Assembly (NCBI RefSeq): GCF_003334405.1
Contig: NZ_QOWM01000062.1
DNA: 600 nt
Direction: 5' to 3' (one strand)
Origin: Escherichia coli
GTDB lineage: Bacteria; Pseudomonadota; Gammaproteobacteria; Enterobacterales; Enterobacteriaceae
Shown: piece after piece, positions 1-600 of the stretch
Numbering within the stretch: position 1 is the stretch's first letter
How the letters are laid out: each line of letters begins with the position of its first letter
The notes under the pieces: model-generated
Seen by the model: the letters and a program-made list of their open reading frames with translations, nothing else
What the model was told of the DNA's origin: nothing
Database searches by the model: none
Translations under genes and position numbers: made by a program

Positions 1-600
1 CCCTCATCCTCGCTGCGGATAAGTTTGCCGGTCAGGTCGTGGTGATAACGCTGTGTGCGGCCGTCAAAGCCGGTTTCCTGTATCAGCCGGTCAAGTACAT
101 CGTAACGGAAGGTGGTGTGGCTGCCGTTTTCACTGGTCAGGCGGATGACCCGTCCGGCAGCATCGTATTCCATACTGCGCGTCAGCCCGCCCTGCGTGGT
201 ACGGACGGCCTTTCCCCACGCATCGTACTGTGTCCCGTTTCTGCTGCCGTCCGGGGCAATGACGGCGGTCAGGTCACCGGCGATGTTGTATTCATACCGC
301 GTTTCATGGCCCTGCGTGTCTTTCACGGCAATTAACTGTCCACGGCTGTCGTATGCGCGGTACTGACTCAGCCCTTCCTCGCGGTGCACCGCCGTCATCT
401 GCCCGAAGCGGTCATGGTCATAACGGGTTACATAACCGGAACAGTCGGTGAAGCTCAGCAACTGACCGTAACGGCTCCACGTCATGGTTTTCCGGCTGCC
501 GGTGGCATCTTCCGTTGCGCAGGGTAAGTCACTGTGTGGATTATCATAACGGTAGCGGGTGATATCGCCGTCAGGGGCAGTTTCCTGAATCAGACGGCCC
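1..600 (-). CDS. rhs: Rhs-family YD-repeat protein, core region (internal fragment, partial at both ends; codon phase: first full codon at + strand 599-597, last full codon at 5-3)
   Basis: Seen in sequence: the reverse-complement frame beginning at + position 599 is open for all 199 codons, while the other two minus-strand frames have stops within the first ~30 nt (TGA at RC 28-30; TGA at RC 9-11). The translation contains eight YD-repeat units with the canonical Rhs pattern (e.g. GDITRYRYDNPHSDL, GYVTRYDHDRFGQMTAV, GLSQYRAYDSRGQLIAV, GHETRYEYNIAGDLTAV, TQYDAWGKAVRT, MEYDAAGRVIRLT, FRYDVLDRLIQET, RYHHDLTGKLIRS). Established knowledge: this motif and spacing define the Rhs/YD-repeat core (Pfam RHS_repeat type), and the sequence strongly resembles enterobacterial Rhs cores from memory. 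Which paralog (rhsA, B, C, etc.) cannot be resolved from an internal core fragment, so only the family symbol is given. No database search was run. Confidence 0.93.

What the first reader, a model, noticed from the sequence alone, without database searches (positions are those of the whole stretch)
1..600. GC content about 59%, above typical enterobacterial chromosome average
My hand count gives roughly 354 G+C in 600 nt (about 59%, approximate). Rhs cores in E. coli are known to be markedly GC-rich relative to the ~51% chromosome, with the C-terminal tips AT-rich, which is read as evidence of horizontal origin. The composition here fits that pattern if the host is an enterobacterium.
Basis: partly seen in the sequence, partly recalled or inferred. 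Interest (0 to 1): 0.25.

Follow-up and report, generated by a model that had tools for sequence, protein, structure and literature searches.

The report
GC-rich piece of E. coli Rhs core
The window is an internal piece of an Escherichia coli Rhs toxin-shell gene, and its 59% G+C is the long-known GC-rich composition of the Rhs core in a 51% G+C genome, so the finding is correct but ordinary.

Summary
The count is exact: 354 G+C in 600 nt, 59.0%. The only open frame is on the minus strand (window 599..3, 199 aa). It is made of YD/RHS repeats and is 100% identical to codons 493-691 of rhsB in E. coli K-12 MG1655. It is 99.8% identical to rhsA and 97.7% to rhsC. On its own, 600 nt at 59% is only a mild outlier: 3.2% of non-rhs 600-nt windows in a 375-kb K-12 sample reach it, and the neighbouring nik genes do too. 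The signal is strong at gene scale. The four K-12 cores are 61.3-63.3% G+C over 3.7 kb, and no non-rhs 3.7-kb window exceeds 58.8%. G+C then falls to 36.5-41.3% in the tips after the PxxxxDPxGL motif. About one third of the window's excess comes from amino-acid composition and two thirds from G/C-ending synonymous codons. Distant YD-shell genes track host G+C; the enterobacterial clade sits 7-12 points above its flanks. Polarised substitutions show the core losing G+C. This fits the classical foreign-ancestry reading but does not prove it. All of this was already known.

The parts
3..599 (-). Internal part of an Rhs core ORF, open at both ends of the window. It encodes 199 aa, equal to codons 493-691 of K-12 RhsB (1,411 aa). 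By eye it holds about 9-10 YD repeats (RYRYD, TRYDHD, YRAYD, TRYEYN, TQYDAW, SMEYDAAG, FRYDVLDRL, RYHHD and others).
   Evidence: This is the only one of the six frames without a stop codon. Pfam PF05593 RHS_repeat matches five times. NCBIfam NF041261 RHS_core gives E = 2e-117 over model positions 501-699. The window is 100% identical to rhsB in NZ_CP032667.1 at 262107-262706. It resembles solved Rhs cocoon structures: Tse5 8cp6 at E = 4e-45 and RhsA 7q97 at E = 2e-34.
1..600 (.). The compositional feature itself: 59.0% G+C, with GC3 of 67.3% and GC2 of 48.2% in the coding frame. It is part of a 3.7-kb GC-rich block, the Rhs core, that extends beyond both ends of the window.
   Evidence: Along the rhsB CDS, 300-nt bins run 57-67% G+C up to nt 3600 and then fall to 45%, 35% and 33%.

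Best explanation
The window is an internal segment of an E. coli clade-I Rhs core gene (rhsB, rhsA or rhsC type), read on the minus strand. It encodes about 9-10 YD repeats. By homology with solved Rhs effectors, these form part of the beta-sheet wall of the cocoon that encloses the variable C-terminal toxin. The toxin is released by autoproteolysis at the PxxxxDPxGL end of the core.

The 59% G+C is the known composition of that core. Roughly one third of the excess over host coding DNA comes from the repeat's amino-acid make-up, which is rich in Thr, Arg, Gly, Asp and Tyr and raises GC2. Roughly two thirds comes from a preference for G/C-ending synonymous codons.

The most likely cause of the synonymous part is ancestry of the enterobacterial core lineage in a GC-richer background. 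The core then persisted as a conserved, recombining multi-copy module while AT-rich toxin tips were swapped in from elsewhere. In E. coli the core is now slowly losing G+C.

Shown: identity, composition, the partition of the excess, the core/tip contrast, and the direction of recent substitutions. Inferred: the cocoon role of this particular segment, and foreign ancestry as the cause.
For: - **Identity.**. Full-length K-12 RhsB scores 2,643.8 bits against the RHS_core cut-off of 2,000.
- **Composition.** Window 59.0%; cores 61.3-63.3%; tips 36.5-41.3%; K-12 sample 50.9%.
- **Partition of the excess.** The window's coding frame (597 nt) is 58.8% G+C. The same protein written in host codon usage would be 54.7%. 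Host genes average 52.4%. That gives +2.3 points from amino acids and +4.1 from synonymous choice. For the whole rhsB core, observed GC3 is 72.4% against 56.7% expected.
- **The excess is not generic to YD-shell genes.** In 28 distant relatives the homologous segment tracks flank G+C (slope 0.91, r = 0.93), with a mean excess of +1.7 points. Four enterobacterial relatives (E. albertii twice, Trabulsiella, Rahnella) exceed their flanks by 6.6-11.8 points.
- **Not at equilibrium.** There are 77 GC->AT against 40 AT->GC polarised changes in the rhsA/B/C lineage, binomial p = 0.0008. The implied equilibrium is 47% G+C.
- **Literature.** A G+C-rich core and A+T-rich extension are described in PMC2935791, which also reports a Serratia core at 67.7% against a tip at 46.4%. 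[quoted passage not shown] Cocoon structures are described in PMC8765631, PMC10684867 and PMC11461821.
Against: - Under host synonymous usage the core is not atypical (z = +0.4). Its G/C-ending codons are mostly the host's common ones, so composition alone does not prove foreign origin.
- Jackson et al. 2009 conclude that the rhs lineages are ancient and mostly predate the Enterobacteriaceae. A recent import would not be expected to coexist with that, and an old one should largely have ameliorated.
- The substitution test had no native-gene control. E. coli genes in general show a GC->AT mutational bias (my own knowledge).
- No GC-rich donor was identified.
- The enterobacterial hosts sampled span only about 50-54% G+C in the flanks, so whether the core tracks its host within the clade could not be resolved.
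Confidence: 0.85

Rival explanations
1. The high G+C is intrinsic to what the gene encodes. The YD-repeat shell needs many Gly, Arg, Thr, Ala and Asp residues, and this alone makes the DNA GC-rich. On this view ancestry plays no part.
For: The window's GC2 is 48.2%, and only 2.2% of 180 host ORFs are as high (z = +1.84). The window is 11.1% Thr, 10.6% Arg and 10.1% Gly, against 5.3%, 5.3% and 7.9% in the host. Distant YD-shell genes average +1.7 points over their flanks.
Against: Amino-acid composition accounts for only 2.3 of the 6.4 points of excess. GC3, which amino acids do not constrain, is 67.3% in the window and 72.4% in the core, against 55-57% expected from host usage. Many distant homologues sit at host G+C.
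Confidence: 0.05
2. The G+C excess is created or maintained by GC-biased gene conversion or recombination among the multi-copy cores (Rhs stands for rearrangement hot spot), not by a GC-rich donor.
For: The cores are multi-copy (median 4 per genome) and nearly identical over 3.7 kb: rhsA and rhsB are 98.9% identical, and rhsC is 96.7-97.0% identical to rhsB and rhsA. This is compatible with conversion or recent duplication. The excess is concentrated at synonymous sites and is specific to the clade.
Against: Polarised changes in the rhsA/B/C lineage run 77 GC->AT to 40 AT->GC, with an implied equilibrium of 47% G+C. That is the opposite of what a process currently driving G+C up would produce.
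Confidence: 0.06
3. There is nothing special here: 59% in 600 nt is ordinary local fluctuation in an E. coli chromosome.
For: 3.2% of non-rhs 600-nt windows reach 59% or more. The adjacent genes nikC, nikD and nikB are 58-61% G+C.
Against: The high G+C is sustained over 3.7 kb, a scale at which no non-rhs window in 375 kb reaches 59%. It ends abruptly at the core/tip junction, falling to 35-45%. The same pattern recurs in all four K-12 copies and in relatives from E. albertii and Trabulsiella.
Confidence: 0.03
4. Translational selection explains it: the core uses G/C-ending codons because these are the host's preferred codons.
For: The enriched codons CTG, CAG, GTG, CCG, ATC, AAC, GAC and CAC are common host codons. 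The likelihood under host usage is slightly above the host mean (z = +0.4).
Against: The rare Arg codon CGG is enriched threefold (0.30 against 0.10), while the preferred codons CGT and GGT are depleted. K-12 rhs genes are not known to be highly expressed (my own knowledge, not tested here).
Confidence: 0.03

Closest known systems
E. coli K-12 RhsB, RhsA and RhsC (clade-I / RhsABCF subfamily Rhs core; NCBIfam NF041261)
   Same: The nucleotide sequence is identical to rhsB, differs by 1 nt from rhsA and is 97.7% identical to rhsC. The window shares the same frame, the same YD repeats and the same GC-rich composition.
   Different: Nothing differs. The window cannot be assigned to one locus or strain, because identical copies are annotated as RhsA, RhsB or RhsC in different strains.
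T6SS Rhs effectors with solved structures: P. aeruginosa Tse5 (8cp6), P. protegens RhsA (7q97), A. baumannii Tse15 (8uy4), P. laumondii Tre23 (7pq5)
   Same: The YD-repeat beta-cocoon region is homologous. E-values run from 4e-45 to 2e-23 and cover nearly the whole 199 aa for Tse5, RhsA and Tre23. The core-end motif and the Rhs-associated core domain are present in the full K-12 gene.
   Different: No PAAR or other T6SS-adaptor family was detected in K-12 RhsB by NCBIfam. K-12 is regarded as lacking a T6SS (my own knowledge), so its export route is unclear. Sequence identity to the solved structures was not computed; distant plasmid-borne relatives are about 24-36% identical.
Serratia marcescens clade-II rhs (SMA1610), Jackson et al. 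2009
   Same: The compositional architecture is the same: core 67.7% against tip 46.4% G+C, with a low-G+C trough extending downstream.
   Different: It belongs to a different clade and a host of higher G+C. It was not analysed here.

Membership tests
Rhs / YD-repeat core protein (Pfam PF05593; NCBIfam NF041261 RHS_core) | Tandem YD (RHS) repeats | tested here: met
   There are five PF05593 matches, four of them with E <= 5.5e-6. TIGR01643 YD_repeat_2x gives E = 5e-25.
Rhs / YD-repeat core protein (Pfam PF05593; NCBIfam NF041261 RHS_core) | Collinear match to the RHS_core equivalog model above its curated cut-off | tested here: met
   The fragment scores 393.6 bits over model positions 501-699, and a 199-aa piece cannot reach the 2,000-bit cut-off. 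The identical full-length K-12 RhsB scores 2,643.8 bits over positions 1-1261.
Rhs / YD-repeat core protein (Pfam PF05593; NCBIfam NF041261 RHS_core) | Rhs-associated core domain ending in PxxxxDPxGL, followed by a variable tip | tested here: met
   This feature lies outside the window. In K-12 rhsB the motif PISDIDPLGL is at aa 1238, and TIGR03696 matches aa 1170-1247.
Rhs / YD-repeat core protein (Pfam PF05593; NCBIfam NF041261 RHS_core) | GC-rich core of about 3.7 kb followed by an AT-rich extension | tested here: met
   Cores are 61.3-63.3% G+C and tips 36.5-41.3% in rhsA-D. The window is 59.0%.
Rhs / YD-repeat core protein (Pfam PF05593; NCBIfam NF041261 RHS_core) | Beta-cocoon fold enclosing the toxin | not tested
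   No structure was predicted. There is only sequence homology to solved cocoons, with E values as low as 4e-45.
T6SS-delivered Rhs effector | N-terminal PAAR or adaptor domain, and linkage to vgrG or a T6SS cluster | tested here: inconclusive
   NCBIfam finds no PAAR family in K-12 RhsB. No vgrG or hcp gene is annotated in the region shown around rhsB, about 10 kb on each side of the gene. Pfam was not run on the N-terminus.
Horizontally acquired DNA (compositional criteria) | G+C clearly different from the host over the length of the element | tested here: met
   The cores are about 10-12 points above the host and exceed every non-rhs 3.7-kb window in the sample.
Horizontally acquired DNA (compositional criteria) | Synonymous codon usage atypical for the host | tested here: not met
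   The core scores z = +0.4 and the window z = +0.2 in likelihood under host usage. Only the tip is atypical (z = -3.95). GC3 is nevertheless high, and only 3.3% of host ORFs are as high.
Horizontally acquired DNA (compositional criteria) | Phylogeny incongruent with the species tree, or an identifiable donor | not tested
   No tree was built. The single genome-contig scan found few close relatives.
Horizontally acquired DNA (compositional criteria) | Ongoing amelioration towards host composition | tested here: inconclusive
   There are 77 GC->AT against 40 AT->GC changes, with an implied equilibrium of 47% G+C. No native-gene control was run.

The most novel reading that the evidence does not exclude
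The synonymous-site G+C excess of enterobacterial Rhs cores might not be a fading relic of a GC-rich donor. It could instead be a property maintained in this clade across hosts, for example through biased conversion among copies or selection on the DNA or mRNA of the repeat module. That would explain why a family said to predate the Enterobacteriaceae has not ameliorated.
Probability: 0.1. Interest if true: 0.35.

Novelty: already known. Interest (0 to 1): 0.07.

Why it matters
It matters little beyond correct annotation. The GC-rich core and AT-rich tip architecture of E. coli Rhs elements has been described since the work of Hill and colleagues in the 1990s, and it is restated in later papers (PMC2935791, PMC7259588). 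This check adds three things:
- Scale matters: 600 nt at 59% is only about the 97th percentile of host windows.
- The excess splits roughly 1:2 between amino-acid composition and synonymous codon choice.
- Composition marks the tip as foreign much more clearly than it marks the core.

Tried and rejected
- **Other frames.** The plus-strand ORFs of 98 aa (39..335) and 84 aa (112..366) are shadow ORFs of a GC-rich gene. Every frame except the minus-strand one has stop codons.
- **RNA families.** An Rfam scan of the window at gathering thresholds gave no match.
- **Frame error.** The first frame reference, window:2-598:-, was off by one and gave 13 stop codons. It was corrected to window:3-599:-.
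- **Plasmid collection.** A tblastn search returned mostly relatives of 36% identity or less in GC-rich Burkholderia and Ralstonia. These were not useful for testing host tracking within the clade.
- **Genome scan.** The genome-contig scan relies on exact peptide words and returned only four usable enterobacterial relatives. Hosts with very different G+C, such as Yersinia, Photorhabdus, Proteus and Serratia, were not recovered. Whether the core tracks its host within the clade therefore remains open.
- **Primary literature.** Wang, Zhao & Hill 1998 (PMC107404) is not held in the library. The 'acquired from a high-GC organism' view is cited only through secondary sources.
- **Biased gene conversion.** This was considered as the cause and is disfavoured by the 77:40 GC->AT excess.

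Full report
**Observation**

The window contains C 177, G 177, T 146 and A 100. In 100-nt sub-windows G+C ranges from 54% to 64%.

**What the sequence is**

Five of the six reading frames have 2-13 stop codons. The minus-strand frame running from window position 599 to 3 is open throughout and encodes 199 aa. This translation gives:
- five Pfam RHS_repeat (PF05593) matches;
- a match to the NCBIfam equivalog RHS_core (NF041261) in register at model positions 501-699, E = 2e-117;
- matches to solved Rhs cocoon proteins: Tse5 8cp6 at E = 4e-45, a Vgr-Rhs fusion 8qja at 5e-35, and RhsA 7q97 at 2e-34.

Megablast against 5,426 complete E. coli genomes finds the window in 3,897 of them, with a median of four places per genome. 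Many hits are 100% identical and are annotated variously as RhsA, RhsB, RhsC or 'RHS element core protein'.

In K-12 MG1655 (NZ_CP032667.1) the window is:
- 100% identical to rhsB;
- one mismatch from rhsA;
- 97.7% identical to rhsC;
- 82.8% identical, over 487 nt, to rhsD.

It corresponds to codons 493-691 of the 1,411-aa RhsB. Full-length RhsB exceeds the curated RHS_core cut-off (2,643.8 bits against 2,000). It also carries the Rhs-associated core domain at aa 1170-1247.

No Rfam family matches the window. The plus-strand ORFs listed are shadows of the GC-rich gene.

**Host composition**

A 375-kb sample of the K-12 chromosome, drawn from eight regions, is 50.9% G+C.

How unusual the window is depends on scale.
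- **At 600 nt.** Among 7,020 non-rhs windows the mean is 50.6%, the SD is 5.8 and the 95th percentile is 58.3%. Of these windows, 3.2% reach 59% or more. The nik operon beside rhsB is itself 53-61% G+C. The window alone is therefore only a mild outlier. It is also one of the less GC-rich parts of the core: CDS bins 1501-1800 and 1801-2100 are 56.7% and 61.0%.
- **At 3.7 kb.** None of 6,276 non-rhs windows reaches 59%; the maximum is 58.8%. The four K-12 cores, from the start codon to PxxxxDPxGL, are 61.3-63.3% G+C with GC3 of 71.5-75.4%.
- **At the core/tip junction.** Immediately after the motif the tips fall to 36.5-41.3% G+C, with GC3 of 18-31%.

**Where the excess comes from**

In the coding frame the window has GC1/GC2/GC3 of 60.8/48.2/67.3%. 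The means for 180 long host ORFs are 59.3/41.3/56.5%. Only 2.2% of host ORFs have GC2 as high, and only 3.3% have GC3 as high.

I rewrote the same 199 aa using host synonymous codon frequencies. This gives 54.7% G+C, against an observed 58.8% in the coding frame and a host coding mean of 52.4%. Of the 6.4 points of excess:
- about 2.3 points come from amino-acid composition, which is rich in Thr, Arg, Gly, Asp and Tyr;
- about 4.1 points come from synonymous codon choice.

The preferred G/C-ending codons (CTG, CAG, GTG, CCG, ATC, AAC, GAC, CAC) are mostly common E. coli codons. As a result, a likelihood score under host usage does not flag the core (z = +0.4) or the window (z = +0.2). It does strongly flag the tip (z = -3.95, lower than all 180 host ORFs). 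The only rare codon clearly enriched in the core is CGG, at 0.30 against 0.10.

**Testing the horizontal-origin reading**

- **Literature.** Jackson et al. 2009 (PMC2935791) describe the G+C-rich core and A+T-rich extension. They report a Serratia core at 67.7% against a tip at 46.4%. They also conclude that the rhs lineages are ancient and mostly predate the Enterobacteriaceae. [quoted passage not shown] The primary paper, Wang et al. 1998, was not available.
- **Cross-taxon comparison.** A scan of species-representative genomes returned 39 loci. In 28 distant relatives (24-39% aa identity; Chitinophaga, Betaproteobacteria, Planctomycetota and others) the homologous segment tracks the G+C of its 10-kb flanks. 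The slope is 0.91 and r = 0.93, with a mean excess of only +1.7 points (SD 2.7). That is about what amino-acid composition predicts. The four enterobacterial relatives with flanks (E. albertii twice, Trabulsiella, Rahnella; 51-88% identity) exceed their flanks by 6.6-11.8 points. The large excess is therefore specific to the enterobacterial clade and is not a general property of YD-shell genes.
- **Direction of change.** I polarised changes in the rhsA/B/C lineage using sites where an E. albertii homologue and rhsD agree. There are 77 GC->AT and 40 AT->GC changes (p = 0.0008). The per-site rates imply an equilibrium of about 47% G+C. The core is therefore out of equilibrium and is losing G+C. 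This fits amelioration of a once GC-richer sequence and argues against a process currently pushing G+C up, such as biased gene conversion.

Three caveats apply to these tests:
- no native-gene control was run for the substitution test;
- polarisation was by parsimony;
- the enterobacterial hosts sampled span only a narrow range of G+C.

**Mechanism**

By homology with solved T6SS Rhs effectors (PMC8765631, PMC10684867 and PMC11461821), the YD repeats form the beta-cocoon that encapsulates the C-terminal toxin. The window would supply about 9-10 hairpins of the cocoon wall.

This is inferred from sequence homology. No structure was predicted. No PAAR or T6SS adaptor family was detected in K-12 RhsB by NCBIfam, so the export route in K-12 is not established here.

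**Verdict**

The feature is a textbook property of E. coli Rhs elements, so it is already known and of low interest.

One open point remains. A family said to be ancient in enterobacteria still carries a 7-12 point G+C excess, and it is not clear why. My data favour a slowly decaying relic. I give about 10% to the alternative that the bias is actively maintained.

Noticed in passing
L009 (1393-1989) and L013 (3-386); also L011 (2129-2725): Two short contigs carry copies 99% aa-identical to the E. coli Rhs core segment. One is 2.7 kb and is filed under an Oscillospiraceae MAG. The other is 544 bp and is filed under Streptomyces griseoloalbus JCM 4480. A 3.5-kb contig from a Lentisphaerae MAG carries a copy at 75% identity and 63% G+C. 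These look like E. coli or enterobacterial contamination, or mis-binning, in public assemblies.
   Followed up: no
Plasmid record NZ_CP069926.1, 699-1295 (hit H21): A 5,191-bp record filed as a Klebsiella oxytoca plasmid is annotated rhsB and is 99% aa-identical to the window. It is probably a stray chromosomal or contaminant fragment rather than a plasmid.
   Followed up: no
L001 14278-19600 (nikR, nikE, nikD, nikC, nikB, nikA, next to rhsB): The native nik operon is 53-61% G+C. nikC is 60.9% with GC3 of 75%. A 59% window is therefore not unique in K-12, and local flanks overestimate the host's G+C.
   Followed up: partly
L001 9840-10334 (rhsB tip), 9485-9868 (yhhH), 7753-8889 (ISEc1/H-rpt transposase yhhI), 677-2299 (yhiJ/yhiL family): An AT-rich trough lies downstream of the core: tip 36.6%, yhhH 33.3% and ISEc1 transposase 41.5% G+C. 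A separate 37.5% G+C gene of the yhiJ/yhiL family lies further on. By codon likelihood the tip is more atypical than any of the 180 host ORFs (z = -3.95).
   Followed up: partly
Window 1-600, compared with L001 12001-12600, L002 24117-24716 and L003 24925-25524: The window is identical in genes annotated as rhsA, rhsB or rhsC in different strains. In K-12 it differs from rhsA by a single base. The locus and strain of origin therefore cannot be determined from these 600 nt.
   Followed up: yes
Window 1-600, plus strand: G equals C (177 each), but T exceeds A (146 against 100, AT skew about -0.19). The coding (minus) strand is therefore A-rich over T, as expected for a coding strand.
   Followed up: no
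Plasmid record NZ_OY757120.1, 1490-2086 (hit H22): A 7.3-kb E. coli plasmid record from a broiler carries an unannotated Rhs-core-like segment that is 64% aa-identical to the window.
   Followed up: no
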